DNA from: Corallococcus exiguus
GTDB taxonomy: Bacteria > Myxococcota > Myxococcia > Myxococcales > Myxococcaceae
Reading direction: 5' to 3' (one strand)
DNA: 64,000 bases
Assembly (NCBI RefSeq): GCF_017302975.1
Contig: NZ_JAFIMT010000003.1
The position numbers and the translations under genes were made by a program. Below, in pieces: positions 7,872 to 44,135 of the stretch (within the stretch, counting starts at the first letter, position 1; the number at the start of each line of letters is the position of its first letter). The notes below the pieces were generated by a model that made no database searches, was not told the DNA's origin, and saw nothing but the letters and a program-made list of their open reading frames with translations.

Positions 7872-7889
7872 AACGAAAGCCCACCGACA

Positions 7890-24608: not shown

Positions 24609-24650
24609 CGCACTGTCCTTGCGGCCCGGAATCGAGCAAGACTCAAGGCC

Positions 24651-25388: not shown

Positions 25389-25400
25389 GGCGGCGTGACT

Positions 25401-29088: not shown

Positions 29089-30687
29089 ATGTTCAACGTC
29101 ATCAACGTCTCCAAGGCCTATGGGCCCAAGAAGCTGTTCGAGGAGGTCAACGTCGCCTTCTCGCCGGGCCGCCGCTACGGCCTGACCGGTCCGAACGGGG
29201 CCGGCAAGTCCACGTTCATGAAGATCCTCGCGGGAGACGAGGAGCAGGACATGGGCGACATCATCCGCCCGCGGAAGCTGGGCATCCTGCGCCAGGACCA
29301 CTTCCGCTACGAGAACGATCGAGTCATCGACGTGGTGCTGATGGGCAACCGCCACCTGTGGGCGGCGATGGACGAGAAGAACAAGCTCCTGGCCAAGTCC
29401 GACATCACCGAGGAGGACGGCAACCGGCTGGGTGAGCTGGAAGGCGTCATCGCGGAAGAGGACGGCTACTCGGCGGAGAGCGACGCGGCCACGCTGCTGG
29501 CGGGCCTTGGCATCGAGGAGTCCTTCCACGAAGAGCCCATGCGCCAGCTGACGGGCGGCCTGAAGCTGCGAGTGCTGCTCGCGCAGGCGCTGTTCGGCAA
29601 GCCGGAAGGGCTGCTGCTCGACGAGCCCACGAACAACCTGGATATCGACTCCATCCGCTGGCTGGAGAACTTCCTGCATGTGTACGAGGGCGTGCTGATC
29701 ACCATCAGCCACGACCGGCACTTCCTGAACTCGATTTGCACGCATATCGCGGACATCGATTACGAGACGATCATCCAGTACACGGGTGGTTACGACGACA
29801 TGGTCCGGCAGAAGTCGCAGCTGCGGACCCGGGTCGAGTCCGAGACGGCGGAGAAGAAGAAGAAGATCGCCCAGCTGCAGGACTTCGTGGCGCGCTTCCA
29901 CGCCGGTACGCGAGCGTCGCAGGTGCAGAGCCGCATCAAGCAGATCGACAAGCTGAAGACGGAGGACCTGAAGCGCTCGAACATCGCGCGGCCGTTCATC
30001 CGGTTCGACCAGAAGGTGGTCAGCGGTCGTCAGACGCTGATGTTCGAGGGCCTGAAGAAGTCCTTCGACGGGGTGCCGGTCATCAAGCCGTTCACGGGCC
30101 TGGTCTGCAAGGGCGAGCGTATCTGCGTGATTGGCCGCAACGCGGTGGGTAAGTCCACGCTGGTGAAGATGCTGGCCAACCAGCTGGAGCCGGACGCGGG
30201 GACCATCACCTGGGGCCACCAGGCGACGGTGGGCTACCTGCCGCAGGACCACCACGGCGTCATCCACAAGGGCACGACGTGCTTCGGCTACCTCCGGGAG
30301 ATCAGCGAGAAGCTGACGAACGAAGAGATTTCGGGCGTGTTGGGCCGGATGCTCTTCTCGGGTGAAGAGCGGATGAAGGCGACGGACACGCTCTCCGGTG
30401 GTGAGACGGTGCGCGTGCTGTTGTCCAAGCTGATGATCACGCAGGACAACGTGCTGATTCTGGACGAGCCGACGAACCACCTGGACCTGGAGTCCATCGC
30501 GGCGCTGGCGGAAGGCCTCTCGAAGTTCGACGGCACCGTCATCTGCGTGACGCACGACCAGGAGCTCATCTCCGAGGTCGCGACCCGCATCTGGAGCCTG
30601 GAGGCGGGCAAGGACGTGCTCGACTTCAACGGGCCCTACTCGGAGTTCATGGAGAAGCACGCGGACGCGGCGCTGAAGCGCCGGTAG
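29089..30687 (+). CDS. ABC-F family ATPase (two ABC domains, no TMD)
   Basis: It has two Walker A motifs (GPNGAGKST; GRNAVGKST), two LSGG signature motifs and an inter-domain linker. The start is the ATG at MFNVIN. Confidence 0.9.
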   Translation: MFNVINVSKAYGPKKLFEEVNVAFSPGRRYGLTGPNGAGKSTFMKILAGDEEQDMGDIIRPRKLGILRQDHFRYENDRVIDVVLMGNRHLWAAMDEKNKLLAKSDITEEDGNRLGELEGVIAEEDGYSAESDAATLLAGLGIEESFHEEPMRQLTGGLKLRVLLAQALFGKPEGLLLDEPTNNLDIDSIRWLENFLHVYEGVLITISHDRHFLNSICTHIADIDYETIIQYTGGYDDMVRQKSQLRTRVESETAEKKKKIAQLQDFVARFHAGTRASQVQSRIKQIDKLKTEDLKRSNIARPFIRFDQKVVSGRQTLMFEGLKKSFDGVPVIKPFTGLVCKGERICVIGRNAVGKSTLVKMLANQLEPDAGTITWGHQATVGYLPQDHHGVIHKGTTCFGYLREISEKLTNEEISGVLGRMLFSGEERMKATDTLSGGETVRVLLSKLMITQDNVLILDEPTNHLDLESIAALAEGLSKFDGTVICVTHDQELISEVATRIWSLEAGKDVLDFNGPYSEFMEKHADAALKRR

Positions 30688-31116
30688 TCTTTCGGCACTC
30701 CAGGCAGTGCCTACGCCGCCCGTTTCCGGTGCTCCGGAAGCGAGGCGGCGTTTTCGTGCGCGTGTCAATTCTTCCTGTACGCTGTCACCCAGCTCAACGT
30801 ACGAAGGCACTTGGAGGAGAGAGTTAAAGAACAGGTTGTCCTCACCACCACAGCGAGGCTGCGCGAGGTGTCGCTGGTAAATGCAGGTGAAGGAGCGCTG
30901 GTGGGCGTACAGGCGGCGACAGCCGAAGGGGCCGGTGCTCTGCGAGGTGGTTCATGCGCAAAGGCTTGAGGCCTGTGCCGCACTGCGCGAGAGCGGGCTC
31001 CGTGGCTTCGTAACCACCGGGTGTGAGACTCAAATCTTTCCTGTAGGGGCGGGCTTGTAGATCTGCAACGCTTCCGCAACCCGCCCTCTCCTGGGACGAG
31101 GTGAAGGAGCCAAGCA

Positions 31117-32052
31117 ATGCCTGACGGAAGACTGAAGCGCCTCGCTGACATGAAGCCGCTGGCGGATCTGTCTAGCCCCCTGACTCCGCCAAGTCTGGAG
31201 GCTGAGAGGAACCACGAACCGGGGTACTTCAAGGGACGCCGAGGGTTCAACCCGAACTTCATCCCTGAATTCCAGGTCGAACTCCCAACGCTATCCAAGT
31301 CGCTCAGCGACGACGCGGCGCCGCTAGTCACTGACGCGAACAAGCACGTCCTCGACTACGAGAACTTCTCGCTCGTGATGTCCAAATCGCGGCGGCTGGC
31401 CATCTACACCGCGTGCAACATCGAAGGCGAGCAGAGTAAGCGCGACAAGGTGGCGCGCCAGGGCAAGGACGAGTGGTTCTATGACCTACGCATCAGCCCT
31501 CATCACCAGATTGGCGAAGACCTCTACCGAGACAACGAACTCGACCGCGGTCACCTCGTCCGCCGCGAGGACCCCGTCTGGGGAGACAAGGCCGTCCACG
31601 CCAACGACGACACTTTTCACTTCACCAACTGCTCGCCGCAGCACTCGGGCTTCAACCAGAAGACTTGGCTTGGGCTGGAGAACTACATACTCCAGAACGC
31701 CCGACTGCACGAACTGAAGGCCACGGTCTTCACGGGCCCCGTCTTCACCCCCAATGACCCACTGTATCGTGGCGTGCGGATTCCCCGCTCGTACTGGAAG
31801 GTTGTCTCCGTCTTCAGCGAGGAGCAACGTTCGGCAACCGCCTATGAAATCAAGCAGGACCACCTCCTGGAAGGGCTTGAGTTCCTCTACGGCAAGTACA
31901 AGACGCACCAAGTGAGCATCCACAAGGTCGAGCGTATGACGGGGCTCAAGTTCGGCCCACTCTCCACCTACGACGGCTTTTCGAACGAGGAGGCCACCGT
32001 CGGCTCCGAGGTCAGCATGCCCTTGTCGGACTGGCGCGCGATCCGGATTTAA
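31117..32052 (+). CDS. Non-specific DNA/RNA endonuclease (Endonuclease_NS / Serratia-EndoG-like, beta-beta-alpha-Me, DRGH motif), no signal peptide
   Basis: LDRGHLVRRED is the catalytic DRGH motif, and the FTNCSPQ and Asn metal site lie downstream. There is a strong RBS (gaaggag) 6 nt before the ATG. GC is lower than in the flanks. Confidence 0.85.
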   Translation: MPDGRLKRLADMKPLADLSSPLTPPSLEAERNHEPGYFKGRRGFNPNFIPEFQVELPTLSKSLSDDAAPLVTDANKHVLDYENFSLVMSKSRRLAIYTACNIEGEQSKRDKVARQGKDEWFYDLRISPHHQIGEDLYRDNELDRGHLVRREDPVWGDKAVHANDDTFHFTNCSPQHSGFNQKTWLGLENYILQNARLHELKATVFTGPVFTPNDPLYRGVRIPRSYWKVVSVFSEEQRSATAYEIKQDHLLEGLEFLYGKYKTHQVSIHKVERMTGLKFGPLSTYDGFSNEEATVGSEVSMPLSDWRAIRI

Positions 32053-35000
32053 GCCCTCGCGGGGAATCCCCTGATCGCCACCAGGGAGTGGAGGAACTCG
32101 TCCCAGTCTTGGAGAGACTCCGCGAACCTCTGGGCTGCGGAGTCCTCCGTTGCATAAGTGGAGACATGAACCAACTCGAGAAGTTGCCCACACTCGTCCG
32201 CGTGATTGACGAGCTCGCGTGCTTGGTCCTTCAGGCGCATGCGGAAGAACGTTTTCATCCTATCGGCAGGAAGAAACTTCTCGGCGAGTGTGGGCCATCT
32301 CTTTCCCCCTCCCTTAAGGAGCGCGAAACGCGCGGGCACCCTCCACTCCACATGCCGCGCCACCAGCAGCCTTTTCACGACCGTGACGGTGGCCGCTGAC
32401 TCCTCCATCACGAGTGCGAATAACCACTCGTGGAGGGCGTTCACCAGTTCCGGGGGCACCTGATCGAACGTGACGAGGTCTGCCTTGGACGATGTGTTGA
32501 TGCTGAATGGCGTCCTGACGAGCTTCAGCAACTGGTGAATCCGGTCCGCCCACCCCCTAGCGCCAAAGTCCAGGAGCGTCTCGATCGTGAATTGTTCGCC
32601 AGCATTTAACGACGTCAGCGGCGCTGCCCGGAAGTACTCGGCAAGCAACGAACGAACGTCACCGGGAGCAAAGAGAACGAGTCGACGGAGCAGCCCAGGG
32701 GCCTGACGCGACACCATCCGCCGAAGCTGATTGGCGACATGCAATGCGCTGTCCGCCAATGAGGGACTACTCAAGCCAGCCCGCCGTAACGCGCCCACTT
32801 GGCCCGTGAGGCATTCGAGCAGCGCCATCTGGGTTTCCCGCTCGTGCGCCAGACTGGCTCCTTCATCAAAGAGTTTCTCGGACCTCCGATCCCCCATCTT
32901 GAACAGCAACTCCGCATGGGCCCGGATTAGTTGAAGGCGCTCGAACCCGCTCGAATGTGAGTCTGAATGACCGCGCTCGTACGCCTCCAACGCCATGTCG
33001 AATTCCGCCATGTCGGAGAGTGCCGTACCCAGCAGCCTGCTCCATTCAGCCCCTTGACCGGATGGAGCCCGACTTGTGAGCAACTCGCGCACGAACTCGG
33101 GCTTGCCACGGCGCATGTCCTGCTCGGCCCGCTGCTTAGCGTACTGAGTCCAAACGCTGGAACTCAGCATCTCGCGCTCCTCCGGGTCCAGCACTTGGCC
33201 GAGCTTGGCCTTAAGAAAGGCGCGCGCCTGTGGCTGGAGGTCGGGGACCGCAGTCTTAAGGAGAGGCTCTGCATCCTCCGACCAACGCAGCTCAGCACGG
33301 TCGATCTTATCCAAGAGCAGATGATGGTAGAGTTCTTCAGCATGGTTGGCTGGACCTACGCGCTCAGCGTAGTAGGCGGCCGCGCGCTCATTGATCTGCC
33401 TGAACTTTCCGGGGTCGGAACGCTCCAAGTCGTCGCGGATCAACCCCAGCATAAAGGTCCGGATATCGCGACGATGCACGAGTACGTCGCCTCTGCGCGT
33501 CACCAGCGCGACTTCCTTTGCCATCTTCTCGAAGAGGGCGCGTGCTTTGACCTCGTCCACGTCTTTCAAGCCGCAAGGCTCCGCAAGCACCTTGGAGATC
33601 AGCTCGGGCGTAAGCTGCCGGAGGATTAACCCCGGATGTGCCAGTCGGGCGACCTCTTTGTCCACGTGAGAGAGAGTCCGGGTGAAGAGCTGCACCGCGA
33701 CATTCTCAGAGTCGTATTGTCCGAGCACGCGGGCGAGCCCCCCCCGCCTCACGCCGACGAGTTCCCCCATCACCAGCTCCGACTCGGAAACTCGTGTGAG
33801 TTCCTTGCGGACGAGGCCCACTGCCAGCTTGAGAGAGAGTGGGCTCGTCCCCACGTGAGACACTATCTCGTCGAGCATCTCTCGTGGCAGCGCCAGCCTA
33901 TTCTTCAGGAACTGGACAGCGGACCGCCGGTCCAATCCCTTGAGCCAAAACCCCTCGGCACTAGGCTCCGCAAGAGGAGCCCGACCGGAGATGACAACCC
34001 GCAGTTCCCCCCAGTCTCCGTTGTCGCTAAGGGTCTGCAACATCGAGAGAACCTCCGCCACGTCTCCATCCCCCGCGCGCTGCACCTCCTCGAACGTATC
34101 GAGAACAAGGAGGAGCGGTCTTCCGTCCCGAGTTAAGGGACGTACGGCGTTGCGCAACTGGCGCGCACCCTCATGCACAAGACGTGGGTCTCGCACCACC
34201 TCCTCCACATCAATGCTGGCGAACTCGGAGGAGCGGGCGCTCCGGTGTCGCTCGCGAAGCAGCCTCTCGAAGCGTTCGCGCTGCCGCCCCCCAAAGCTCT
34301 TGAGTTCCGTCCCGAGATGCGGGAACTGAAACGCAAGCTGTTGCGCCATCTCCTGCAAGAGGGATATGGGCTGGCGTGGCAGAAGGGTCGCCCGATCAAA
34401 GTCAAGGTAGACGAACGGAAACCGGCGCTCCGGATCCTGACGCGCATGTTCGACGAGAAACTGCGCCATCAATGTTGATTTGCCGATGCCCCCTGCCCCA
34501 TAGACAACAAAAGGTTGATAGTGAGAGTCGGCCCACCTCCGAACGGTCCGCACTAAGGATTTCAGCTCACGGCGTCCCCAGCCAGCCCAGGACTCAGGAG
34601 GCTGCACACCAACGTAGTCACTAAGCTTTCTCAGCTCTGTCGTGCGGCCAGCGAAACCCTCTCGAAGCAGCTCATCGAAGGGCTTGAGGATCTGCGCGAA
34701 CCCGAGCTGCTGGCGGACCCGCTCCGGGTTCGGCATCTCGACCGGTGTGCCCTCCAACCATTCACAAATCACTGCAGTCTTCGCAAGTTCGTCGACACTC
34801 TGCTGTTGGATCGGTGGTGCGGAACCATTGAGATATTGAGACAGTGCCTCCGACAGCTCGTCATCCGAGGCCGAGCTGCCCATGCGGCCCACCTCCAAGC
34901 GGATCTCCTTGGCTGACAGGGACCGCAGGACCTCCTTTCGAGGCGCTTCCTTGAGCATCCATCGCCGGTACCCCCGACGCGTGGTCACCGTGCTCTCCCT

Positions 35001-35234
35001 TAGGAGGCGGTCTAGCACCCCTCGTCGATGTTCCATCGATAGCTGCGGGGGCAAGAGCTGCGTTGGGTCGAAAGTACCGACCAAGGCGGCGCGCTTGCGC
35101 ACGGCACCATAGAGGTCGTCCACGACTCCCGCCTCCGGCAGGGCGAACGACTTTTCCAGTGTGCCGCGTATCGCCTCTCGCAGTTCCTCCGGAATCAGAG
35201 ACAGCGCTTCGTCAATGGGGCTCTTGCCTGCCAT
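32049..35234 (-). CDS. STAND/NB-ARC-like P-loop NTPase with approximately 230-aa N-terminal helical domain and approximately 550-aa C-terminal helical (TPR-like) repeat sensor region
   Basis: Walker A is VYGAGGIGKSTL and Walker B is RPLLLVLDTFEEV, followed by a GxP-like segment. There is a long Leu/Ala/Arg-rich helical C-terminus. A GAGGA RBS sits 6 nt upstream of the ATG, and the gene is the last of a three-gene operon. Confidence 0.8.
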   Translation of the reverse strand: MAGKSPIDEALSLIPEELREAIRGTLEKSFALPEAGVVDDLYGAVRKRAALVGTFDPTQLLPPQLSMEHRRGVLDRLLRESTVTTRRGYRRWMLKEAPRKEVLRSLSAKEIRLEVGRMGSSASDDELSEALSQYLNGSAPPIQQQSVDELAKTAVICEWLEGTPVEMPNPERVRQQLGFAQILKPFDELLREGFAGRTTELRKLSDYVGVQPPESWAGWGRRELKSLVRTVRRWADSHYQPFVVYGAGGIGKSTLMAQFLVEHARQDPERRFPFVYLDFDRATLLPRQPISLLQEMAQQLAFQFPHLGTELKSFGGRQRERFERLLRERHRSARSSEFASIDVEEVVRDPRLVHEGARQLRNAVRPLTRDGRPLLLVLDTFEEVQRAGDGDVAEVLSMLQTLSDNGDWGELRVVISGRAPLAEPSAEGFWLKGLDRRSAVQFLKNRLALPREMLDEIVSHVGTSPLSLKLAVGLVRKELTRVSESELVMGELVGVRRGGLARVLGQYDSENVAVQLFTRTLSHVDKEVARLAHPGLILRQLTPELISKVLAEPCGLKDVDEVKARALFEKMAKEVALVTRRGDVLVHRRDIRTFMLGLIRDDLERSDPGKFRQINERAAAYYAERVGPANHAEELYHHLLLDKIDRAELRWSEDAEPLLKTAVPDLQPQARAFLKAKLGQVLDPEEREMLSSSVWTQYAKQRAEQDMRRGKPEFVRELLTSRAPSGQGAEWSRLLGTALSDMAEFDMALEAYERGHSDSHSSGFERLQLIRAHAELLFKMGDRRSEKLFDEGASLAHERETQMALLECLTGQVGALRRAGLSSPSLADSALHVANQLRRMVSRQAPGLLRRLVLFAPGDVRSLLAEYFRAAPLTSLNAGEQFTIETLLDFGARGWADRIHQLLKLVRTPFSINTSSKADLVTFDQVPPELVNALHEWLFALVMEESAATVTVVKRLLVARHVEWRVPARFALLKGGGKRWPTLAEKFLPADRMKTFFRMRLKDQARELVNHADECGQLLELVHVSTYATEDSAAQRFAESLQDWDEFLHSLVAIRGFPARA

Positions 35235-35241
35235 GGCGTCC

Positions 35242-37092
35242 TCAGCTCAAACCCGTGGCGAACGCGGCGACTCCTCTCGCCAGCGCCTTGGAGAACGGCT
35301 CATCCTGGAGCTTGTTTGCACTCGCCATCATCACGAGGCCAGGCGCTATCTGGCTCAGCAGCGTGCGCGGAGTCTGCTTGCCGTGATGTTCCACATAACG
35401 CGCAAGGTACTCCGCCACCTCGTCGGAGCCGGGCGCCCGGGTGCGATCCACTTCCACGAGCGAGGCGAGCACCGTCAAGAGACTCGGTGGCCCGCCGATG
35501 AGGAGCCAGCGAAGTGCGGCGAGATGTGGCACCTCTCGCAATAACCGCACCAGGATGTCGAGCGTCTCGTCGTTCACGAACGTCTTCCGGTTGAAGTTAT
35601 CCAGCGCAATCCAGATCGAGAAGGATCCATTCACCTCCGCCGGGTAGCGGAGTGCGAATGCCGCAGTGAACCAGTCGAATAGGAGGGTGCTCGCCCAGCG
35701 CGCAGACTGACGGTCCACGGGTCGAGCTGGCGCGCCCTCCACCGGCAGTTTCAGGTCGCGTGCCAAGTCCATCAGGAACGCGTCAGGTGCCTTGTCCTGA
35801 ATCGCCGACATATCGTAGTCCATGACCACGTCCGGGCGCCCGGAGAACAGCCCTTTCATGATGTCGATGGAGAACGAGCACCCCGAGTCGTCATCACCTT
35901 CCACCACCAGGATGCGCTTTGGTGAGTGCGCCGCTCCCATTGTCCAGAGGATCTGCTGGAACTCAATGCGACCCAGAACTGGTGCCCCGGACGGCAATTG
36001 CCAGAGCGGCACGAATCCAGGAAGGTCCTGAGACTCAAACCCACCCTTCGACTGGATGTGGTCGCGGATCAACCAGATGGGTACCCCCTGGTTTAACTGC
36101 TGGTTCTGCACTTCCGCGTGGTGGAGCGCGACAAGCCCGAACCGGATATCGAAGCATGGTGCGCCGGAAGCCCCCTTCATCGTGTTCACGGCGTAGCGCA
36201 ACCGCGCTTGGCGGGTGTCCATGGCCTTGAACGGTCCAAAGGCAATGTGGAGCGCATGACCCGCCGGGTGCTGCCCGATGACCAGCGGCTGGTCCGGTTC
36301 GAGCGTCATGGTCGTGGAGGACCCGGCAGGGAACTCCACCCAACCGCGCTCCTGCCCCCCACCCGTGCCGACGGGCGCCCTTCCCACGGGTTTGGCGAGG
36401 TTGAGCACCGCGTAGTCCAGCAGCGTCAGGCAGTCCGGTGGATTGGGCAGTTCCAGGACAATGCCGTCTTCCGGGTGTCCCGGGCTCATCGGTCCCAGCC
36501 AGTCGTCCCGCAGCGCCACGGCTGTTCCCGGGAGCAGCTCAGTCCCATCCGCGAGAGCGACGTAGTCGAAACGGCATCGGATCTTCTCTCCGACGCTCGG
36601 CAGGGGCGCCCCCTCCGCGTCGAAACACGTCGCGATGACGTGATAGGCTGTGAGCACGCGATCCGGCGCGATGAGCACACCGGTTCCCATCGCATTCGCT
36701 TCCACCTCAATCCGGCAGATCTGCTGCCCGCGCTTCTGCATCTGGGCCGAGAACACAGTCCAGGGCGCCATGGGTCCGTTGTAAGTGATGAGGCTTTGTA
36801 GGGGAGAGGCGTCGGCAGCCTGAGTCCCCAGCCGCGACAGGAATTGCATTAGCCTGGGCGTCTTAGGAGCATCTCGCAGCAGATAGGCGATTAGCTTAGC
36901 AGTGGCCCCGTTGAGCGTCACCCAATCAAGCAGCACCCCCGGCCCGGATTCCTCGGACGCGCCGGGCGCGATGACGTCCAGGCTCTGCTTGAACCACATC
37001 TCGATGAGAGCGCGCAGCTTTGGGCCTTCCAATTCTGCGGACAGGATGGAGGCCAGCTCGGTACGTTCCTGAGGGGTGAGCGCCAGTTGCAT
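35242..37092 (-). CDS. Three-module protein: N-terminal small helical domain (EAD-like) + trypsin-like serine peptidase + C-terminal domain of unknown function
   Basis: His motif is GTGVLIAPDRVLTAYHV, Asp is in DYAVLNL, and Ser motif NTMKGASGAPCF is GDSGGP-like. The roughly 100-aa N-terminal helical module is MQLALTPQERTELASIL...LRALIEMWFKQ. The C-terminal approximately 280 aa have no recognisable motif. The gene lies 9 nt after the upstream protease gene. Confidence 0.75.
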   Translation of the reverse strand: MQLALTPQERTELASILSAELEGPKLRALIEMWFKQSLDVIAPGASEESGPGVLLDWVTLNGATAKLIAYLLRDAPKTPRLMQFLSRLGTQAADASPLQSLITYNGPMAPWTVFSAQMQKRGQQICRIEVEANAMGTGVLIAPDRVLTAYHVIATCFDAEGAPLPSVGEKIRCRFDYVALADGTELLPGTAVALRDDWLGPMSPGHPEDGIVLELPNPPDCLTLLDYAVLNLAKPVGRAPVGTGGGQERGWVEFPAGSSTTMTLEPDQPLVIGQHPAGHALHIAFGPFKAMDTRQARLRYAVNTMKGASGAPCFDIRFGLVALHHAEVQNQQLNQGVPIWLIRDHIQSKGGFESQDLPGFVPLWQLPSGAPVLGRIEFQQILWTMGAAHSPKRILVVEGDDDSGCSFSIDIMKGLFSGRPDVVMDYDMSAIQDKAPDAFLMDLARDLKLPVEGAPARPVDRQSARWASTLLFDWFTAAFALRYPAEVNGSFSIWIALDNFNRKTFVNDETLDILVRLLREVPHLAALRWLLIGGPPSLLTVLASLVEVDRTRAPGSDEVAEYLARYVEHHGKQTPRTLLSQIAPGLVMMASANKLQDEPFSKALARGVAAFATGLS

Positions 37093-37101
37093 GGGTAATC
37101 G

Positions 37102-38274
37102 TCAAGGTACGAAGTGCAGGCCGAATTCCTTGAACCTCGCCTCAGCAATCATCTTCGCCATGAGCACAGCCTCATTTTGGCTGAGTTGGGTTCCCCGAAA
37201 GTGAAGCCCCACTACCTTATTCGTGGCTAGCCGCACCACGCACGAGCCAGATGAGCCCTTGAGCGTACTGCAATCGTGTTGCAGGGAGCAGGTGGACGCA
37301 TCCAGCGCTGTGATGACGCCTGGCGCTAGGCGCTTGCGTCCGTAGATTCCCCCAAAAATCTGTTCCAGGACCTCGGACTCGTGCGTGTCGTCGAAGCCTG
37401 GATAGCCAATCGTGTACACGTGGTCGTCGCTTGTGCGAACCTCGGCGTCATTCGAGGCGATGGGGAGCGGGGCCGGAAGCGTCTCACCGGCCGCGTTCCG
37501 GGTCTCGACCTCCAGCAGGGCGAGGTCCGGATGACCCGCCGCGCCATCCTCCACGTGGAGGATTCGCTTCACCTCGAACTCCAGAGTCTTCGCATTCTGC
37601 TCCTCGACAAGGAAATCGACCCATACGCGCGTTCCCTCGTGCAAATTCCAGCCATCCCCAGACTTCTTCCCAAGATGCGGGTCCACCACATGGCGGTTCG
37701 TCACGAGGACCCCGGAACCTGCGACCCAGGCCGTTCCAATGCCCCTGCCATTTCCTCCCTTCGATCCGAAGTACACCCGGCCCACGCTCTGGAGGGTGCG
37801 CTTGATCTTATTGCGGTTCAGGTCGAGCGCGAGGTGCTCCCAGCTCTTGTCCAGCGGCCCATTGAAGTCTCCCTGCTGGATGAGCATTGAAGGCCGGCCC
37901 GTCAGGCGGACGATGGCTTCCAGTGAGGCGAGCTGTGGCAGGGTGAGAGCTGCCCGCGTCCCATCCTTTGAAATCTCCGCGAGCGCGGTCGCCGCAGTCC
38001 GAACGAGCGAGACTCCCTTCGCTGTGAGTTCCTTCTCGGTCTTGCCCCGAACCCCGTCCACGCATACCAAGTCCAACAGGAGCGCCGTCTTCTGCGGGTC
38101 GTTTTTAACAGCCTCCGCGAGTTCTTCAGCACGCTTAGAGGACAGCGCCCCCTGGGCCACGGTCTCCTCAACGGGAGCGCCAGCGGCTTCCAGCGACTCC
38201 ACTGTTCGACCGCCCAAAACGTACATGGCGCGCGCTATGAACTGACTTGGCTCAAACAGGCCATTGTTTCCCAC
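37102..38274 (-). CDS. Trypsin-like serine peptidase with approximately 170-aa N-terminal helical domain
   Basis: His motif is GTAWVAGSGVLVTNRHVV, Asp is in HPDLALLEV, and the Ser motif is TLKGSSGSCVV. It is the first gene of the island operon. The listed start is a GTG at 38274, with an alternative ATG at 38226. Confidence 0.75.
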   Translation of the reverse strand: MGNNGLFEPSQFIARAMYVLGGRTVESLEAAGAPVEETVAQGALSSKRAEELAEAVKNDPQKTALLLDLVCVDGVRGKTEKELTAKGVSLVRTAATALAEISKDGTRAALTLPQLASLEAIVRLTGRPSMLIQQGDFNGPLDKSWEHLALDLNRNKIKRTLQSVGRVYFGSKGGNGRGIGTAWVAGSGVLVTNRHVVDPHLGKKSGDGWNLHEGTRVWVDFLVEEQNAKTLEFEVKRILHVEDGAAGHPDLALLEVETRNAAGETLPAPLPIASNDAEVRTSDDHVYTIGYPGFDDTHESEVLEQIFGGIYGRKRLAPGVITALDASTCSLQHDCSTLKGSSGSCVVRLATNKVVGLHFRGTQLSQNEAVLMAKMIAEARFKEFGLHFVP

Positions 38275-38307
38275 ACTGCCCCCGTTGCAAATGGCTCACA
38301 TGCGAAG

Positions 38308-38532
38308 ATGACATATCCGCGCCACATCCCAAAGCGCGGAGTCGTGGCGCCGATGGAGGACCGATTCTCTCTCTACCTCGTCGTCCAGAAACAGCCTGAT
38401 GGCTCCGTGACGGCATTCATCCGCCCCCAGAGCGGAACTTCTCACCCATTCGGCGCAAGGTGGCCACCGAGCTTAAACGACTGGTGGCTCAGAAGCCGGA
38501 TGCGACGGTGCGCGAGGCATCAGTGGGTATGA
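38308..38532 (+). pseudogene. Decayed internal fragment of a paralog of the serine-hydrolase gene at 41090-42841
   Basis: Nucleotides 38335-38440 align to 41466-41570 at roughly 85% identity (VAPMEDRFSLYLVVQKQPDGSVTAFIR versus VAPLEDRFSLYLVVQKQPDGSVKAFIR). No N- or C-terminal remainder of the gene is present. Confidence 0.65.
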
Positions 38533-38541
38533 TGCACGGCC

Positions 38542-39984
38542 ATGTACCCGAGACGCCGTCTTCTGGCCCGTGGACCGTGGCTGTTTGATCTCAGACCGCA
38601 TCAGCTCACCGTCTTCCACGGTGCCGAAGGCGTGCGCCGGGAGGTCAGTGGAGACGTGCCGAATCCACCGACCGCGCCCGTGGTGCTCGCCGCGCTGGAT
38701 GAAGCAAAGTACGTCTGGGTGGGATGCGGGGATCGGCGTGCCTTCTCCGTGGGGGCGAGCGCTCCCGTCCAGGCCTTTCCGAGGGAGTGCTTCGATCTAA
38801 TCTCTGATGGGAACCGGCTCATCGGAACGGAGGTGGACGGCGCCCTCAAGCTGAGCACCCTCTTCACGACCGATGGGTCCGGGCAGCGATGGGAGACCAT
38901 GACCTTGCTCAAGCCCGTGTCCGCCAGGCACGGGTACGGATATAGCGAGGGGCGCCCCCACCGTCAGTCCCCTGATGGGGCGTTCCTCGACACGAGCCCC
39001 TTTGGCATCACTGTCGTGGAAAAGGGCCGAGGCCGTGTCTACGTGCTTCGCCCGGGCGCGGCTCAGCCAGAGGGAGCGCTCCAGGTGGAGCCGGGCCATG
39101 AGCAGGACATCTGGCGGGCCCTGGCCACTCCTCACGGCGTGCTTCTCCTGCTCGTCATCAACTACCGGCAGACGGTGCTCCTCCACTTCGTGCTCGACGG
39201 CACCTTGCTCGGCTCCATCCCGGCTCAGGACGATGAGGACGATGAGGATGATGAACTGACCTGGGGCGGTGCCGGGGTGTGCGTCCTCGACGCGGACCGG
39301 GCGCTCCTCTTCGTCCAGGACAAGGTCCTCCTGGTGTCCCTGCCCGGGCTCCAGGTGATGGAGACGCTCGCGGGGGAATGGCCCCGCTTCGTGTCCGTGA
39401 CGCCCGCAGGGGCTGATCGGTGGTGGGTGGGCCCCGAGGACAGTGACGCGCTCTTCCTGCTCACCGCGGAGCCCGGACACCCCTTGCGCCTCGACGCCTC
39501 GAACCGTCCGGTGAGCCCGGGCGCGCCGCTCATGCACGTGGGCTACAAGACGCCCGCGATCCACTGGACCGAGTACATTTCGGCGCCGCTGACCGTTTCC
39601 GCTCCCGTGACCGAGACGTGGCGGGCGGTGGTACGCAATGACGGGACCGCGTGTGAGGCGGTGCGGATCCGGGTGTCCGGGGTGCTCGTCGGTGCTCGCG
39701 CGGTGGACGTGAGCGTGCGGTATCGCGGCCAGCCGCTCCCGATGGTGGAGGAGTTCCGCGTGAACGCCGTCGGCGTTACCGCTGGACTGGAGGGAGGGGC
39801 CACCGCGGAGCTGGAGGTGAGCTTCAAGCCTCGGGGCGAGGGCTCAGGACCGCTGACCATCACCGTCGAGCCGTGCTCCTGGCAGTCGCAGGGCAAAGAG
39901 TGGCAGTGGGACAAAGAGGAGCCTCGCGTCCTCGCGGTGACGGGTCATCCAGCATCCGCCCAGTTCCTTCTCACGGTGGAGTAG
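38542..39984 (+). CDS. Hypothetical protein (beta-rich, no signal peptide recognised)
   Basis: Long ORF from an ATG with coding-like composition and an acidic DDEDDEDDE linker. Confidence 0.5.
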   Translation: MYPRRRLLARGPWLFDLRPHQLTVFHGAEGVRREVSGDVPNPPTAPVVLAALDEAKYVWVGCGDRRAFSVGASAPVQAFPRECFDLISDGNRLIGTEVDGALKLSTLFTTDGSGQRWETMTLLKPVSARHGYGYSEGRPHRQSPDGAFLDTSPFGITVVEKGRGRVYVLRPGAAQPEGALQVEPGHEQDIWRALATPHGVLLLLVINYRQTVLLHFVLDGTLLGSIPAQDDEDDEDDELTWGGAGVCVLDADRALLFVQDKVLLVSLPGLQVMETLAGEWPRFVSVTPAGADRWWVGPEDSDALFLLTAEPGHPLRLDASNRPVSPGAPLMHVGYKTPAIHWTEYISAPLTVSAPVTETWRAVVRNDGTACEAVRIRVSGVLVGARAVDVSVRYRGQPLPMVEEFRVNAVGVTAGLEGGATAELEVSFKPRGEGSGPLTITVEPCSWQSQGKEWQWDKEEPRVLAVTGHPASAQFLLTVE

Positions 39985-41068
39985 CGCGAACCTTCTCGGG
40001 CTCGGGTGCGGCGCTCATCCTCCAGAGCAGGGCGCCGCCCCCAAGCAGGAGACCCAAGCCCACTGCCGCCACGAGGATCCAGCCTCGTCCCACGCGGGGC
40101 CGGGCCTGGCTCTCCGGGCCGTCTGGAGCCGGGGCGACGACGGCCGGGTCGTCACTTGGAGAGACCTGCTGGACGAGCTGGGCCACCTGCTGGGATGTCA
40201 CCGGCTCCCCAACCGAACGGATGAAGGCCTCCAGGTCCTTCCGGAACGCGTGGCAGTCCGGGTAGCGCTCGTCCCGATCCTTCACGAGCGCCCGGGCGAG
40301 GATGGCTCGAAGGGCATCGGGTAGGTCCGGCCGGTGCTGCTCCGCGGGCACCATGGGCTCGTTTGCGACGGCCCGAAACAAGTTGAATTCGGACACGGAT
40401 TCAAAAGGTCTGTGCGTGGTGAGCAGTTCGTAGAGCACCAGACCGAGTGAGTAGACGTCCACCCGCCGGTCCGGCGACACGCCCATGATCTCCTCGGGCG
40501 CCATGTACCTGTACTTGCTCATGTCGGGGTAGTGGTACTCGGGGGCCCACCGTACCCGGAAGTAGTCGATGCCGAAGTCCACCACCTTGGCCGTCCCCTG
40601 GCGCGTCAGGAGAATGTTGTACGGCCGGACGCAGCGGTGGATGAGCCGCAGCGACTCGTTCGTCTTGGGATCGGTGAGGTCGTGGGCGTAGGCGAGCCCC
40701 TCGCAGGCTTGCGAGATGATGCGCGCGCACAGGGTCGCCGGCAGCATCATCCGCTGGGCCACCACGTGCTTGATCACCCTGCGCAGGCTGGGCCCATCGA
40801 TGTGCTCCCTGGCGAGGAAGTACGTGCCGTCCGTCTCACCCACGTCGACGACCTTCGCAAGGTGCGGATGCGTGAGCCGGGCGGCGTCCCTCGCCGTGTC
40901 GAGGAACATCTCCGGGAAATCCGTCTGCTCGGCCATGTCCGAGCGGAGGCACTGGAGCACCAGCGTCTTCTCGATGCCCTGAGGGTTGGCGGCCGTGGCC
41001 AGAGAATCTTCGATGATTCCTTCGACCAGCGGGCGGATGCGCTGGTATTTGCCGACGTGGGATGTCAC
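39971..41068 (-). CDS. Membrane-anchored pseudokinase (Hanks fold with degenerate G-loop, missing beta3 Lys and HRD Asp)
   Basis: The kinase-fold motifs DFG, YMAPE and DVYSLG are present. The catalytic loop reads HRCVRPYN, with Cys replacing the catalytic Asp and Arg replacing Lys. The G-loop position reads RPLVEGIIEDS with no glycines, and VAIK is replaced by TLVLQ. A C-terminal TM helix is present. The start was chosen at the GTG at 41068 to avoid overlap with the divergent gene. Confidence 0.6.
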   Translation of the reverse strand: MTSHVGKYQRIRPLVEGIIEDSLATAANPQGIEKTLVLQCLRSDMAEQTDFPEMFLDTARDAARLTHPHLAKVVDVGETDGTYFLAREHIDGPSLRRVIKHVVAQRMMLPATLCARIISQACEGLAYAHDLTDPKTNESLRLIHRCVRPYNILLTRQGTAKVVDFGIDYFRVRWAPEYHYPDMSKYRYMAPEEIMGVSPDRRVDVYSLGLVLYELLTTHRPFESVSEFNLFRAVANEPMVPAEQHRPDLPDALRAILARALVKDRDERYPDCHAFRKDLEAFIRSVGEPVTSQQVAQLVQQVSPSDDPAVVAPAPDGPESQARPRVGRGWILVAAVGLGLLLGGGALLWRMSAAPEPEKVRATPP

Positions 41069-41089
41069 GGAGCGTATGAATAGCAGACC

Positions 41090-42841
41090 ATGACCCGGTA
41101 TCGCTTCCTTGGGCTTCTGCTGGCGCTGCTTCCGCTCCATGTCGGCGCTGTCCCCATTCCCGCGGAGCAGTTGGTGGGCATCTGGGGCGGTGAGCGCGTC
41201 CTCGGGCCTCAGGTTCGCGGAGAGCTGACACTGGTGCGGGCTGGGAACTCCTGGCACGCGCGCATCGCAGGCGTCGACGTCCCGGCCCGGGTCGAGGGTC
41301 GGAAGGTGTCCGTCATCTTCCCAGGAGGCGAACTCCGAGCGACGTTGGCGGAGAACGGGCAGAGCATCACGGGCCACTGGATCCAGCCGCGTGTGCTCAT
41401 GAGCGGCATGAAGTTCGCCACTCCCGTGGAACTGCGCGCGCTTCAGCCGGGTGTCTGGCGCGGCAACGTGGCGCCGCTGGAGGACCGGTTCTCGCTGTAT
41501 CTCGTCGTCCAGAAGCAGCCTGACGGCTCCGTGAAGGCGTTCATCCGCAACCCGGAGCGGAACTTCGGCAACCGGATGCTCTTCCGTGTCGACCTCCAGG
41601 GCCGCACGGTCCGGCTCACGTCCACCAAGGACAACACCCAGATCGAAGGCACGTTCGACGCGGAGTCCGGACGGCTGTCGCTCCCCTACCCTCCCTTCGA
41701 CACGACGTTCGACTTCACCCGCCGGGACCGGTCGCAGGCCGTGGGGCTCTACTCCCGCACGCCCGCTCCCGGCCCCTACGCCTACCAGAAGCCCATCGGG
41801 GAGGACGATGGCTGGACCACGGCATCCCCCGCCGACGTCGGCATGGACATCCAGCCGATCCAACAGCTCGTGCAGCGCATCCTCGACCAGGAACCGAGCC
41901 CGGAGTCCGTCCCCGCCATCCAGGGGCTGCTCATCGCGCGCCACGGGAAGCTCATCGTCGAAGAGTATTTCCAGGGCTTCGACAAGGAGCGCCCCCACGA
42001 CCTGCGCTCCTCCTCCAAGTCCTACGCGTCCCTGCTGATTGGCATTGCCCTGGACCAGGGTGCCCCCTTCACCGTGGACACGCCCGTCGCCTCACTCTTC
42101 CCCGAGTACAAGGGCAAGCTCTCCCACCTGGACGCGCGCAAGCGCAAGCTCACCGTCGCGCACTTGATGACCATGGCGACGGGCCTGGCCTGTGACGACG
42201 ACAATCCGGATTCACCCGGCAACGAGGACCGGCTCGAGGACTCCGTACCGGATTGGTACAAGTACACGCTGGACCTCCCCATGGTCCGTTCTCCCGGCGA
42301 CGGGAAGGCCGTGTACTGCTCCGCGAACATCAACCTGCTGGGCGGCGTCCTCCGCAACACCACCCGCACCTGGATCCCCGAGTTCTTCACGAAGAACGTC
42401 GCCACGCCCCTGCAGATGCGCGGCTACCACCTGGACCTGATGCCCGACGGCGAGCAGTACCTCGGCGGCGGCATCTACATGCGCCCGCGCGATGCCCTGA
42501 AGCTCGGGCAGCTCTACCTCTCCGGTGGCACTTGGAACGGGAAGCGCGTGGTCAGCCAGCGCTGGGTGGAACGCTCCGTCGCGAACCAGGCGACGATGCC
42601 GGACGGACGAACCTATGGCTACACGTGGTGGCGCCATGAGCTTCGCGTCGGCGACCGCGTGTATTCGCAATACGAAGCCAGCGGCAACGGTGGCCAGCTG
42701 GTGATGGTCGTCCCGGAGCTGGACCTTGTCGTGCTGTTCACCGCGGGCAACTACAACCACGTCGCCATCTGGCGGAAGTTCCGCGAGGAACTCCTGCCTC
42801 GATACATCATGGCCGCGGTCTCCACGCCCCCGCGGCCTTGA
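41090..42841 (+). CDS. Secreted beta-lactamase/transpeptidase-family serine hydrolase with N-terminal extra domain
   Basis: There is a signal peptide and the SxxK motif SSSKSY. A YxN-like motif and a C-terminal beta-lactamase fold (GYTWW...GNGGQ) are also present. Confidence 0.8.
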   Translation: MTRYRFLGLLLALLPLHVGAVPIPAEQLVGIWGGERVLGPQVRGELTLVRAGNSWHARIAGVDVPARVEGRKVSVIFPGGELRATLAENGQSITGHWIQPRVLMSGMKFATPVELRALQPGVWRGNVAPLEDRFSLYLVVQKQPDGSVKAFIRNPERNFGNRMLFRVDLQGRTVRLTSTKDNTQIEGTFDAESGRLSLPYPPFDTTFDFTRRDRSQAVGLYSRTPAPGPYAYQKPIGEDDGWTTASPADVGMDIQPIQQLVQRILDQEPSPESVPAIQGLLIARHGKLIVEEYFQGFDKERPHDLRSSSKSYASLLIGIALDQGAPFTVDTPVASLFPEYKGKLSHLDARKRKLTVAHLMTMATGLACDDDNPDSPGNEDRLEDSVPDWYKYTLDLPMVRSPGDGKAVYCSANINLLGGVLRNTTRTWIPEFFTKNVATPLQMRGYHLDLMPDGEQYLGGGIYMRPRDALKLGQLYLSGGTWNGKRVVSQRWVERSVANQATMPDGRTYGYTWWRHELRVGDRVYSQYEASGNGGQLVMVVPELDLVVLFTAGNYNHVAIWRKFREELLPRYIMAAVSTPPRP

Positions 42842-42848
42842 CCCCATC

Positions 42849-43508
42849 TCAATCCCGGTCCGGCGCTCCCAGCGGGAAGAGCGGCCGGTACGGCCTCCCT
42901 CCATCCACCGCCCGAGCCACGGACGGACGCGCGAGCAACCTCGCGCGATAGGCGCGCAGCTGGGGACACGACTCGGGAATCCGGTGCGTCCAGTCCGCAT
43001 AGAACAGCGACGGCGCCGCCGCACAGTCCGCCAGCGTGAAGTCGTTGCCCGCGGCCCAGGCCCTGCCACCCAGCTGCCCTTCAATCCAACCGTAGGCGCG
43101 CTCCAGCTTCTCCACGGCCATCTTCATGCCGTCCTGGCGCTTCACCGGGTCCCCCGTCAGCGCACCGTCCACGGCGTGCTGGGCCGCGTTCATCACGTGC
43201 AGGTCGAAGAAGCGGTCGAGGAACCGCACGTCCAGCGCGGCCAGCGGATCCTCGGGCAACAGGCGCACCGGCCCGGGATGCTTCAGCTGGAGGTACTCGA
43301 TGATGATGCTGGTCTCGACGACGTTGCGCTCGCCGTCCACCAGCAGCGGGAACTTGCGCAGCGGCCAGCGGCGCAGCCATTCGGCTGAATGCTCCGGTGT
43401 CTCCGGGCTGATGCTTCGAAACTCGAAGGGCGTACCGTTCTCGTACAGCGCGATGAGCACCTTCTGCGTGTACGAGGAGAAATAGTGACCGTAGACCGCG
43501 AGCGACAT
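42849..43508 (-). CDS. Glutathione S-transferase family protein
   Basis: N-terminal thioredoxin-like GST fold (YGHYFSSYTQKVLIAL) with an alpha-helical C-domain. It is divergent from an HxlR regulator. Confidence 0.8.
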   Translation of the reverse strand: MSLAVYGHYFSSYTQKVLIALYENGTPFEFRSISPETPEHSAEWLRRWPLRKFPLLVDGERNVVETSIIIEYLQLKHPGPVRLLPEDPLAALDVRFLDRFFDLHVMNAAQHAVDGALTGDPVKRQDGMKMAVEKLERAYGWIEGQLGGRAWAAGNDFTLADCAAAPSLFYADWTHRIPESCPQLRAYRARLLARPSVARAVDGGRPYRPLFPLGAPDRD

Positions 43509-43605
43509 CGTCGGACCTCTCCATTCGACCACTTGCGTTTCACAACGGGTTGAACCGTATTTGCACTACTTGCATACTGCAAGCAGAAACCCCAGGAGCA
43601 CGGCC

Positions 43606-44112: not shown

Positions 44113-44135
44113 AGCGGGTAGCGTTCACCGCGCTC

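What the first reader, a model, noticed from the sequence alone, without database searches (positions are those of the whole stretch)
38308..38532. Decayed serine-hydrolase paralog fragment marks the island boundary
A roughly 105-bp stretch (38335-38440) is about 85% identical to an internal part of the beta-lactamase-family gene 3 kb downstream (41466-41570). It lacks the rest of that gene and sits exactly where composition returns to host-like. This looks like the scar of an insertion or recombination event that destroyed a paralog. Such a scar is independent evidence that the 30.7-38.5 kb segment was acquired.
Basis: seen in the sequence. Interest (0 to 1): 0.5.

Follow-up and report, generated by a model that had tools for sequence, protein, structure and literature searches.

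The report
Two-gene junk scar at defence hotspot
The flagged stretch is a dead, patchwork scar, made of a 109-bp piece of the neighbouring gene fused to a 77-bp piece of a jumping-gene (transposase) gene, at the edge of a spot where Corallococcus strains keep swapping anti-virus gene cassettes; it is real but ordinary.

Summary
The repeat is real. Window 38334-38441 matches 41458-41566 (109 bp, 86% identity, E = 4e-31; 30 codons 90% identical, then a 1-nt deletion).

- The piece comes from the N-terminal extension of the 583-aa protein (residues 123-159). It does not come from the serine-hydrolase domain (Pfam 280-550; S-x-x-K at 307).
Window 38442-38516 is an internal piece (codons ~63-88) of an IS630-like transposase gene. 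An intact-looking copy of that IS sits at this same site in another C. exiguus strain.
- The "ORF" 38308-38532 is a chance reading across this mosaic.
- None of the 23 related loci that carry the gene has a second copy or the fragment.
- The differences from the resident gene are mostly synonymous. The flanks are recombinant, with a sharp breakpoint at the resident gene's start. The fragment is therefore best read as another allele of the same gene, not a decayed paralogue.
- 30776-38516 is strain-specific cargo in a core defence hotspot between an ABC-F gene and a conserved 480-aa gene.

Verdict: a non-functional scar made by illegitimate recombination. The exact sequence of events is unresolved. 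Interest is low.

The parts
38334..38441 (+). Relic of the beta-lactamase-family gene. It corresponds to codons 123/124-159 of the 583-aa protein (the N-terminal, non-catalytic extension). It is in frame for 30 codons, then a 1-nt deletion after 38424 breaks the frame.
38442..38516 (+). Relic of an IS630-like transposase ORF A (HTH region, codons ~63-88). With the L024 variant of the IS, homology starts at 38432/38436, so the two relics overlap in a shared AACTTC.
   Evidence: 84-87% nt identity to L021 17483-17559, L022/L023 10032-10108 and L024 6143-6227; tblastn E = 3e-9 and 1e-8; three-way joint alignment
38227..38333 (.). 107 bp of unexplained AT-richer DNA (GC 0.55) between the start of the protease gene and the fragment. 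It is probably the upstream region of the cargo's first gene. Joint J1 lies at 38333/38334.
   Evidence: no blastn or tblastx match in any fetched locus or elsewhere in the window
38308..38532 (+). Chance 74-aa ORF that reads across the mosaic. The bla-derived part is in frame with the ATG; the transposase part is read out of frame.
   Evidence: no Pfam hit; the only protein-database matches are to the transposase part
30776..38516 (.). Strain-specific hotspot cargo segment, 7741 bp, GC 0.618.
   Evidence: synteny breaks at both ends in L001, L002, L018, L024, L025 and L026; GC
31117..32052 (+). Cargo gene: DNA/RNA non-specific endonuclease (PF01223).
   Evidence: E = 1e-49
32049..35234 (-). 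Cargo gene: 1061-aa STAND-type P-loop NTPase (AAA_16; weaker NACHT-like matches).
35242..37092 (-). Cargo gene: 616-aa trypsin-like peptidase (Trypsin_2).
37102..38226 (-). Cargo gene: 374-aa trypsin-like peptidase, which matches a PADLOC 'nacht'-associated model. The start at 38226 follows the 374-aa database protein P0001.
38542..39984 (+). Conserved 480-aa hypothetical protein, the first core gene to the right of the hotspot. It is hyper-polymorphic among strains.
39971..41062 (-). Ser/Thr protein kinase-like core gene.
41090..42841 (+). Resident beta-lactamase-family gene (583 aa). The segment equivalent to the fragment is 41458-41566. A recombination breakpoint relative to strain L026 lies at about 41090-41100.
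29089..30775 (+). ABC-F ATPase gene (stop at 30687; the start is inferred from the 532-aa calls in relatives) plus its terminator hairpin. This is the left-hand core flank. Its last ~300 bp carry alleles private to this window.

Best explanation
The stretch does nothing. It is a composite scar at the right edge of a defence-gene hotspot.

Shown:
- It consists of two unrelated gene relics joined head to tail.
- One is 109 bp from the N-terminal extension of the beta-lactamase-family gene.
- The other is 77 bp from the middle of an IS630-like transposase gene.
- Three non-homologous joints bound them: J1 at 38333/4, J2 at 38441/2 and J3 at 38516/7.
- The same IS family occupies this exact site in another C. 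exiguus strain.
- The fragment belongs to a different allele lineage from the present 5' half of the resident gene.

Inferred:
- J2 was made by microhomology-mediated illegitimate recombination between the beta-lactamase-family gene (after codon 159) and the IS that lay 3.1 kb upstream on the same strand. With the L024 variant of the IS, both partners read AACTTC at the crossover.
- A joint that runs from the gene's upstream part into the IS's downstream part has the geometry of a tandem-duplication joint. The duplicated unit would be about 38442-41566, which matches the 3124-nt repeat spacing.
- A further illegitimate deletion (J1) then removed all of the upstream copy except its last 109 bp. 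Another deletion (J3) trimmed the IS.
- The 13% mostly synonymous difference from the resident gene arose because homologous recombination later placed a different allele next door. The window's 41100-41700 is 99.5-100% identical to strain L026, whereas 38517-41090 is only 78-92% identical to it.

It is therefore a relic of the same gene (an allele), not of a paralogue.
For: - The repeat is real and has sharp ends.
- The transposase relic abuts it directly.
- In L024 an IS630-like element (HTH ORF plus DDE_3 ORF) lies immediately upstream of the same 480-aa gene, on the same strand.
- The three-way alignment of J2 shows a 6-nt microhomology with the L024 IS variant and 2 nt with the L021/L022 variants.
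- All 23 loci carrying the gene have exactly one significant match to the fragment, the resident gene itself.
- Differences by codon position are 2/2/8, with 8 synonymous and 3 non-synonymous codons (Fisher p = 0.018).
- The fragment sits on its own branch inside Corallococcus. It is 84-87% identical to every orthologue, while the resident segment is 100% identical to L026.
- The flanks are mosaic, with a sharp breakpoint at about 41095.
- There is no RNA family, tRNA, promoter-like site, att-like repeat or integrase here.
- The parent gene lies only 3.1 kb away in the same orientation, which argues for a local or syntenic origin rather than random capture.
Against: - Tandem duplications normally collapse quickly by homologous recombination, so a partial illegitimate deletion (J1) would have to come first.
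- The 6-nt microhomology assumes the lost IS copy resembled L024's at that point. Other copies give only 2 nt.
- The relic is no closer to L024's IS (86%) than to copies elsewhere (84-87%).
- The sequence that originally flanked J1 is unknown.
- The third-position excess is only borderline (p about 0.05) once GC-to-AT mutation bias is allowed for.
- I could not scan the rest of the source genome for paralogues.
- The import model listed as the first rival explains the same facts with a similar number of steps.
Confidence: 0.4

Rival explanations
1. A foreign flank relic imported with the cargo. In a donor Corallococcus lineage, a deletion had fused the hotspot cargo directly to the beta-lactamase-family gene at codon ~124 (J1). 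A linear piece of donor DNA then entered. It recombined homologously in the 3' end of ABC-F and joined illegitimately, through microhomology, to the recipient's IS at the right edge of the hotspot (J2). This is homology-facilitated illegitimate recombination, or sequential displacement.
For: - L003 (C. coralloides KYC2213) shows just such a cargo-to-gene fusion. It has lost the 480-aa and kinase genes, and the joint carries 82 bp of filler.
- L002 carries a 94-bp relic of another strain's ABC-F 3' end plus terminator between two cargo blocks. So flank relics do accumulate at this hotspot.
- The window has private alleles in the last ~300-500 bp of ABC-F.
- The foreign allele state of the fragment is explained directly.
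- The mechanism and comparable orphan relics are described in PMC3240628 and PMC5361080.
Against: - It needs a donor with a deletion ending precisely at codon ~124, and none has been sampled.
- This kind of recombination is orders of magnitude rarer than ordinary homologous exchange (PMC5361080).
- No genome with this cargo next to the gene was found. The only other copy of the module (L021) is at an unrelated locus.
Confidence: 0.3
2. One reading: a second, paralogous serine-hydrolase gene once stood at this position, was destroyed when the island inserted, and has since decayed.
For: The fragment is truncated at both ends, frameshifted, and lies at the cargo edge. Its GC3 is lower than the resident's (0.77 against 0.93), with six of eight third-position changes running GC to AT, as decay would produce.
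Against: - No second copy or relic occurs within ~10 kb in any of the 23 related loci, whatever their cargo.
- No genome in the species-level scan gave two loci.
- Substitutions are concentrated at synonymous sites rather than spread evenly.
- The fragment lies inside the variable cargo segment rather than the core, and is fused to an internal point of a transposase gene, not to an insertion end.
Confidence: 0.07
3. Filler DNA: short pieces of whatever DNA was in the cell were captured at random while a double-strand break at the hotspot edge was repaired by end joining.
For: There are three illegitimate joints within about 200 bp, with short or no microhomology. L003's joint also contains 82 bp of unrelated filler.
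Against: A random capture from a genome of about 10 Mb would rarely come from a gene 3.1 kb away in the same orientation. Nor would it often come from an IS that another strain carries at this very site.
Confidence: 0.05
4. A functional element: the 74-aa ORF 38308-38532 is a real small gene, or the region is a regulatory RNA or leader for the downstream 480-aa gene.
For: An ATG-initiated ORF spans the region and ends 10 nt before the next gene's start. Any promoter of the 480-aa gene must lie in or near this DNA.
Against: - The ORF reads one relic in frame and the other out of frame.
- It has no homologues as a unit.
- The region is absent from every relative.
- There is no Rfam match and no promoter-like site.
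Confidence: 0.03

Closest known systems
Core defence hotspots bounded by fixed core genes (P. aeruginosa cDHS1/cDHS2, PMC10250203; E. coli hotspots, PMC10121019)
   Same: The flanking core genes are fixed (ABC-F on the left; the 480-aa gene, kinase gene and beta-lactamase-family gene on the right). Cargo differs from strain to strain, has lower GC and includes recognised defence genes. No single mobile element is responsible. Transposase sequences sit at the hotspot boundary, as that paper reports for P. aeruginosa.
   Different: This is a myxobacterial locus not described in the papers I read. The right-hand flank genes are themselves unusually polymorphic. The flagged feature is only a scar at the hotspot's edge, not a defence gene.
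Orphan gene fragments left by sequential displacement, as in V. cholerae T6SS effector-immunity arrays and Rhs orphan 3' regions (PMC5361080), with homology-facilitated illegitimate recombination as the proposed mechanism (PMC3240628)
   Same: A short, non-functional piece of a flanking conserved gene is stranded between cargo and core, and it carries a foreign allele. L002 at this same hotspot has an analogous ABC-F 3'-end relic.
   Different: Here the relic comes from a gene 3 kb beyond the immediate flank and is an internal piece lacking both gene ends. An extra deletion or a local duplication is therefore needed to explain it.
IS630/Tc1-mariner-family insertion sequences and their decayed relics
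   Same: The 77-bp piece is homologous to the HTH region of an element with HTH and DDE_3 ORFs. The left ends of the copies in L021 and L024 follow a TA. Other relics of the same family occur elsewhere in C. exiguus (P0024).
   Different: Only 26 codons survive in the window. There are no ends, no DDE domain and no target duplication. I could not identify a convincing right inverted repeat even in the L024 copy.
Remnants of tandem duplications (microhomology-mediated duplication followed by partial deletion)
   Same: The joint runs from the downstream gene back into upstream sequence. The repeat is direct, the spacing equals the inferred unit (3124 nt), and there is microhomology at the joint.
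   Different: The two copies are only 86% identical. That requires later allele replacement, for which there is independent but indirect evidence.

Membership tests
Beta-lactamase/transpeptidase-like serine hydrolase (PF00144) gene fragment | Sequence derives from the catalytic domain, including the S-x-x-K motif | tested here: not met
   The fragment corresponds to residues 123-159. The Pfam domain spans 280-550, and the S-x-x-K (SSSK) motif is at 307.
Beta-lactamase/transpeptidase-like serine hydrolase (PF00144) gene fragment | Homology to a gene of that family | tested here: met
   109 bp at 86% identity (E = 4e-31) and 30 aa at 90% identity to the N-terminal extension of the 583-aa PF00144 protein.
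Pseudogene / gene relic | Truncated at both ends, reading frame disrupted, not conserved as a unit | tested here: met
   Homology is confined to 38334-38441, with a 1-nt deletion after 38424. The stretch is absent from all relatives.
Paralogue destroyed in place by island insertion | Relatives lacking the island carry an intact second copy at this position | tested here: not met
   There is one copy per locus in the 23 loci. Nine Corallococcus loci with other cargo have no second copy.
Paralogue destroyed in place by island insertion | Neutral decay pattern, with substitutions spread evenly over codon positions | tested here: not met
   The distribution is 2/2/8 by codon position (Fisher p = 0.018). 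It is borderline (p about 0.05) if mutation bias is allowed for.
IS630-family insertion sequence (relic) | Homology to the transposase N-terminal HTH region | tested here: met
   26-27 aa at 78-81% identity (E = 3e-9 and 1e-8) and 84-87% nt identity to three copies. Precomputed Pfam hits on the full ORFs are HTH_23/28/29/32/33.
IS630-family insertion sequence (relic) | DDE_3 catalytic domain | tested here: not met
   It is absent from the window. It is present only in the L024 copy (precomputed PF13358).
IS630-family insertion sequence (relic) | Terminal inverted repeats and TA target duplication | tested here: inconclusive
   The left ends in L021 and L024 follow a TA. No clear right inverted repeat was found in L024. 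None is present in the window.
Core defence hotspot | Same flanking core genes with different cargo among strains | tested here: met
   The window, L001, L002, L018, L024, L025/L027 and L026 all differ, and L013 differs at the one boundary its contig covers. Blastn and tblastx found no shared cargo among the five segments compared, apart from a short L013-L018 stretch.
Core defence hotspot | Cargo contains recognised defence genes | tested here: met
   PADLOC hits: PD-Lambda-1 at 4.5e-150 plus a SIR2 protein (L025), PDC-M48B at 5.7e-110 (L024), PDC-M04A at 1.5e-36 (L001), and a 'nacht'-associated protease model at 4.4e-16 (window).
Integrase-mediated genomic island | Integrase gene, tRNA or other att site, and flanking direct repeats | tested here: not met
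   The cargo proteins scanned gave no integrase or recombinase match. There is no tRNA in 28-42 kb. The longest repeat shared by the two ends is 7 nt. The left breakpoints are nested within a spacer rather than identical.
Tandem-duplication remnant | Joint connects the end of the unit back to its start; direct repeat with spacing equal to the unit length | tested here: met
   J2 joins codon 159 of the gene to IS codon ~62/63, which lies 3124 nt upstream of the parent segment.
Tandem-duplication remnant | The two copies are (near-)identical, or their divergence is otherwise explained | tested here: inconclusive
   The copies are 86% identical. The proposed explanation is the allele switch at about 41095, but the parental allele has not been sampled.

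The most novel reading that the evidence does not exclude
J1 and J2 were made in a single step by long-range replication template switching. The nascent strand jumped 3.1 kb ahead, copied 109 nt of the beta-lactamase-family gene, and returned through the AACTTC microhomology into the IS. That would be a bacterial example of a templated insertion of the break-induced-replication type. It would be recorded at a previously undescribed myxobacterial defence hotspot whose flanking genes are kept hyper-polymorphic by repeated cross-species recombination.
Probability: 0.1. Interest if true: 0.45.

Novelty: new member of a known kind. Interest (0 to 1): 0.2.

Why it matters
The scar itself has little importance. 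It is dead DNA of a familiar kind: gene and IS relics at the edge of a variable region.

Its use is as a marker. Its three illegitimate joints and its foreign allele state show that cargo turnover at this Corallococcus hotspot involves more than clean homologous replacement. Microhomology-mediated rearrangements reach as far as the gene 3 kb away.

The surrounding context is the more useful result. It is a well-defined core defence hotspot in a predatory myxobacterium. It carries a different defence cassette in every strain, including an uncharacterised module of four genes: a STAND NTPase, two trypsin-like proteases and a non-specific endonuclease.

For annotation, 38308-38532 should not be called a gene.

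Tried and rejected
- Protein-level extension of the homology: tblastn of the whole 583-aa protein found nothing beyond the 30 codons.
- Source of the fragment: a database search with the frame-corrected chimera returned only two transposase-type hits and no beta-lactamase-family hits, so the tool performed poorly on a short query. Two metagenome scans with back-translated motifs (APMEDRFSLY..., then EDRFSLYLVVQKQPDG) found nothing. No sampled orthologue is closer than 87%.
- Exact-sequence look-ups failed for the window's 480-aa protein, for P0001 and for P0046. The source genome itself could therefore not be retrieved or scanned for paralogues or full IS copies.
- Does the fragment travel with the cargo? 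The only other copy of the four-gene module (L021) and a 58%-identical protease locus (L020) have no beta-lactamase-family sequence nearby.
- RNA element, tRNA, promoter and att repeats: all negative.
- The 107 bp at 38227-38333 had no match. The left cargo end, 30776-31120, gave only noise-level tblastx hits.
- A deletion between the CTGAT repeats of the IS as the origin of J3: the resulting sequence would not match the window (reasoned).
- A single site-specific att site for all cargoes: rejected for the left side, where breakpoints are nested in a spacer. On the right side, four cargo types break at the same nucleotide, and this remains unexplained.

Full report
**1. The observation**

Window 38334-38441 and 41458-41566 are a direct repeat: 109 aligned columns, 86.2% identity, one 1-nt gap, start-to-start spacing 3124 nt, blastn E = 4e-31. 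At protein level, 30 codons are 90% identical to residues 124-153 of the 583-aa product of 41090-42841. No other part of that gene is found nearby. After ...ATCCGC (38424) one base is missing. Homology then continues in another frame through ...GAGCGGAACTTC (38441). The longest exact run shared by the two copies is 14 nt, so the repeat is a poor substrate for homologous recombination.

**2. What the fragment is a fragment of**

Pfam places the Beta-lactamase domain of the 583-aa protein at residues 280-550. The only S-x-x-K in that region is SSSK at 307. The fragment corresponds to residues 123-159, which lie in the unannotated N-terminal extension. It is therefore a piece of a gene of the serine-hydrolase family but contains none of the hydrolase domain.

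**3.

The 77 nt between the fragment and the conserved core (38440/38442-38516) are 84-87% identical to an internal part of an HTH gene in three other Corallococcus loci: L021 17483-17559, L022/L023 10032-10108 and L024 6143-6227. tblastn gives 26-27 aa at 78-81% identity, E = 3e-9 and 1e-8.

In L024 the element has an HTH ORF (142 aa) followed by a DDE_3 ORF (179 aa), according to precomputed Pfam hits. From general knowledge of IS families, this is the IS630/Tc1-type architecture. The window keeps only codons ~63-88, read in a different frame from the ATG at 38308. The 74-aa ORF 38308-38532 is thus a chance reading across a mosaic. It has no Pfam hit, no homologues as a unit, no Rfam match and no promoter-like site.

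**4. The genomic setting**

The window is from Corallococcus exiguus or a very close relative. P0001, annotated as C. exiguus, is 100% identical to the cargo protease, and the best synteny is with Corallococcus genomes.

In L001, L002, L018, L024, L025 and L026 the DNA to the left, up to the ABC-F stop (30687) and its terminator hairpin (~30775), is conserved. So is the DNA to the right from 38516/38517, which is 25 nt before the ATG of a 480-aa hypothetical gene. L013 and L027, whose contigs do not reach ABC-F, share the right-hand boundary.

Between these points every genome has different DNA of lower GC (0.54-0.66 against about 0.68-0.70). Blastn and tblastx find nothing in common among the segments compared, apart from a short L013-L018 stretch. 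The cargoes include:
- PD-Lambda-1 (E = 4.5e-150) plus a SIR2 protein in L025 and L027;
- PDC-M48B (5.7e-110) plus the IS in L024;
- PDC-M04A (1.5e-36) in L001;
- an HTH-kinase-like gene in L026.

In the window the cargo is a non-specific endonuclease, a 1061-aa STAND NTPase and two trypsin-like peptidases. The 374-aa peptidase matches a PADLOC 'nacht'-associated model at 4.4e-16.

There is no integrase, no tRNA and no att-like repeat. The left breakpoints are nested within a short ancestral spacer. The locus therefore behaves like the 'core defence hotspots' described in P. aeruginosa, where transposases were also found mostly at hotspot boundaries (PMC10250203). The fragment lies inside the cargo segment, 75 nt from its right edge.

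**5. Is it a destroyed paralogue?**

Each of the 23 fetched loci that carry the gene has exactly one significant match to the fragment, the resident gene itself. No second copy or relic lies within about 10 kb. No genome in the species-level scan yielded two loci.

The fragment is 84-87% identical to every Corallococcus orthologue. Meanwhile the resident segment is 96% identical to L001 and L003 and 100% identical to L026. In a neighbour-joining tree of the segment, the fragment sits on its own long branch within Corallococcus, weakly paired with C. interemptor (54% bootstrap).

Over the 30 in-frame codons it differs from the resident gene at 2, 2 and 8 first, second and third positions. Several of its states are shared with other species' orthologues. 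This is what divergence between functional alleles looks like, followed by recent truncation. It is not what long neutral decay of a local copy looks like.

**6. Why the neighbour is a different allele**

The left flank is 97-99.7% identical to three C. exiguus strains until about 30.3 kb. It then falls to 93%, with alleles private to the window. The right flank 38517-41090 is only 78-92% identical to any genome, apart from a 300-bp patch that is 99% identical to L024. At about 41095, the start codon of the resident gene, identity to L026 jumps to 99.5-100% for 600 bp. Mismatches run at 9-17 per 100 bp before that point and 0-2 per 100 bp after it.

C. exiguus strains also differ strongly from one another in the 480-aa gene (91-95%), the kinase gene (86-95%) and the 5' half of the beta-lactamase-family gene (91-94%), against 99% in ABC-F. 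The hotspot and its right flank are therefore a patchwork of recombining haplotypes. The fragment and the present 5' half of the resident gene belong to different ones. That accounts for the 13% synonymous-biased divergence without any paralogue.

**7. The joints**

- J2: the gene reads ...GAGCGGAACTTC|GGCAAC..., the L024 IS reads ...GGCGGCAACTTC|TCGCCT..., and the window reads ...GAGCGGAACTTC|TCACCC... This is a 6-nt microhomology with that IS variant, and 2 nt with the L021/L022 variants.
- J1 (38333/4) and J3 (38516/7) show no informative homology.
- J3 lies at, or within about 10 nt of, the point where the L024 IS meets the core. About 700 bp of the IS are missing from the window.

**8. 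Mechanism**

All models agree that the stretch is non-functional and was built by illegitimate recombination. I estimate about 0.8 confidence in that core conclusion.

I favour a local event, at about 0.4. In an L024-like arrangement the IS lies 3.1 kb upstream of codon 159 on the same strand. A joint that runs from the gene's upstream part into the IS's downstream part is a tandem-duplication joint, with a unit of about 38442-41566. A later deletion (J1) would have left only the last 109 bp of the upstream copy.

The main rival, at about 0.3, is import. A donor would have a cargo-to-gene fusion of the kind seen in L003 (C. coralloides KYC2213). It would have supplied cargo plus 109 bp of its own allele. 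That DNA would have been anchored homologously in the ABC-F 3' end and joined illegitimately to the recipient's IS. L002's stranded ABC-F 3'-end relic shows that flank relics do accumulate at this hotspot, as in the sequential-displacement model for Vibrio T6SS arrays (PMC5361080; PMC3240628).

I could not discriminate between these two models with the data available.

**9. Novelty and verdict**

Gene and IS relics at the edges of variable regions are commonplace. This is a new instance of a known kind, and interest is about 0.2.

- right: the stretch is an acquired segment, a boundary marker and a recombination scar;
- not supported: it is not serine-hydrolase sequence, not a paralogue, and not simply decayed.

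The hotspot and its uncharacterised cargo module of STAND NTPase, two proteases and a nuclease are the more interesting by-products.

Noticed in passing
window 30776-38516; L001 4741-7402; L002 2707-7529; L018 4636-7378; L024 ~1832-6933; L025 ~1803-7048; L026 ~6514-9611: The interval between the ABC-F gene and the conserved 480-aa gene is a core defence hotspot in Corallococcus. Every strain carries different low-GC cargo: PD-Lambda-1 plus SIR2, PDC-M48B, PDC-M04A, an HTH-kinase-like gene, or the module of STAND NTPase, two proteases and a nuclease. There is no integrase or tRNA.
   Followed up: partly
window 31117-38226; L021 10001-17248: The four-gene module (non-specific endonuclease, 1061-aa STAND NTPase and two trypsin-like peptidases) recurs in Corallococcus sp. 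AS-1-12 at an unrelated locus. There the endonuclease is in the opposite relative orientation and an IS630-like element lies next to it. Several distant homologues of the protease are single proteins that fuse Trypsin_2 and Endonuclease_NS domains (P0009, P0012-P0014), which suggests protease and nuclease act together. This is a candidate uncharacterised defence system.
   Followed up: partly
L002 5283-5376: A second, 94-bp copy of the ABC-F 3' end plus terminator lies inside the cargo of C. carmarthensis. It resembles the C. aberystwythensis allele more than L002's own, and is a flank relic of an earlier cargo import.
   Followed up: partly
L003 9898-9979 (compare L025 7017-9649): In C. coralloides KYC2213 the L025-type cargo is fused to the beta-lactamase-family gene near codon 7-15. 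The 480-aa and kinase genes have been lost, and 82 bp of unrelated filler sit at the joint.
   Followed up: yes
window 38517-41700: The right-hand flank genes (480-aa gene, kinase gene and the 5' half of the beta-lactamase-family gene) are hyper-polymorphic even within C. exiguus (86-95% identity against 99% for ABC-F). They are mosaic, with a sharp breakpoint at about 41095 relative to strain L026 and a patch at 39267-39567 that is 99% identical to L024.
   Followed up: partly
window 38516/38517; L002 ~7529/7530; L013 ~2073/2074; L024 ~6933/6934: Four different cargo types end at the same nucleotide, just before GCGTCAGTGGGTATGATG. Five other loci keep about 25 nt more of an ancestral spacer (cTTGATgccGGGGGaACGG). 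The recurrent breakpoint is unexplained.
   Followed up: partly
window 42847-44114: A segment of about 1.27 kb, containing a glutathione S-transferase gene on the minus strand, is present in the window, the C. exiguus strains, L003 and L013. It is replaced by about 0.1-0.5 kb in L001, L002 and L018. This is another small variable spot.
   Followed up: no
window 52319-53062: About 0.4-0.7 kb present in the window has no counterpart in L003 and L018, whose alignments jump across it.
   Followed up: no
window 16001-18000 and 24001-26000: Further blocks of lower GC (0.62-0.63 and 0.67) stand out against a 0.70-0.73 background. They may be other accessory segments.
   Followed up: no
L022/L023 9845-10246: Another decayed copy of the same IS630-like element lies at an unrelated C. 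exiguus locus and is annotated as an 81-aa 'winged helix-turn-helix' protein (P0024). Relics of this IS family seem common in the species.
   Followed up: partly
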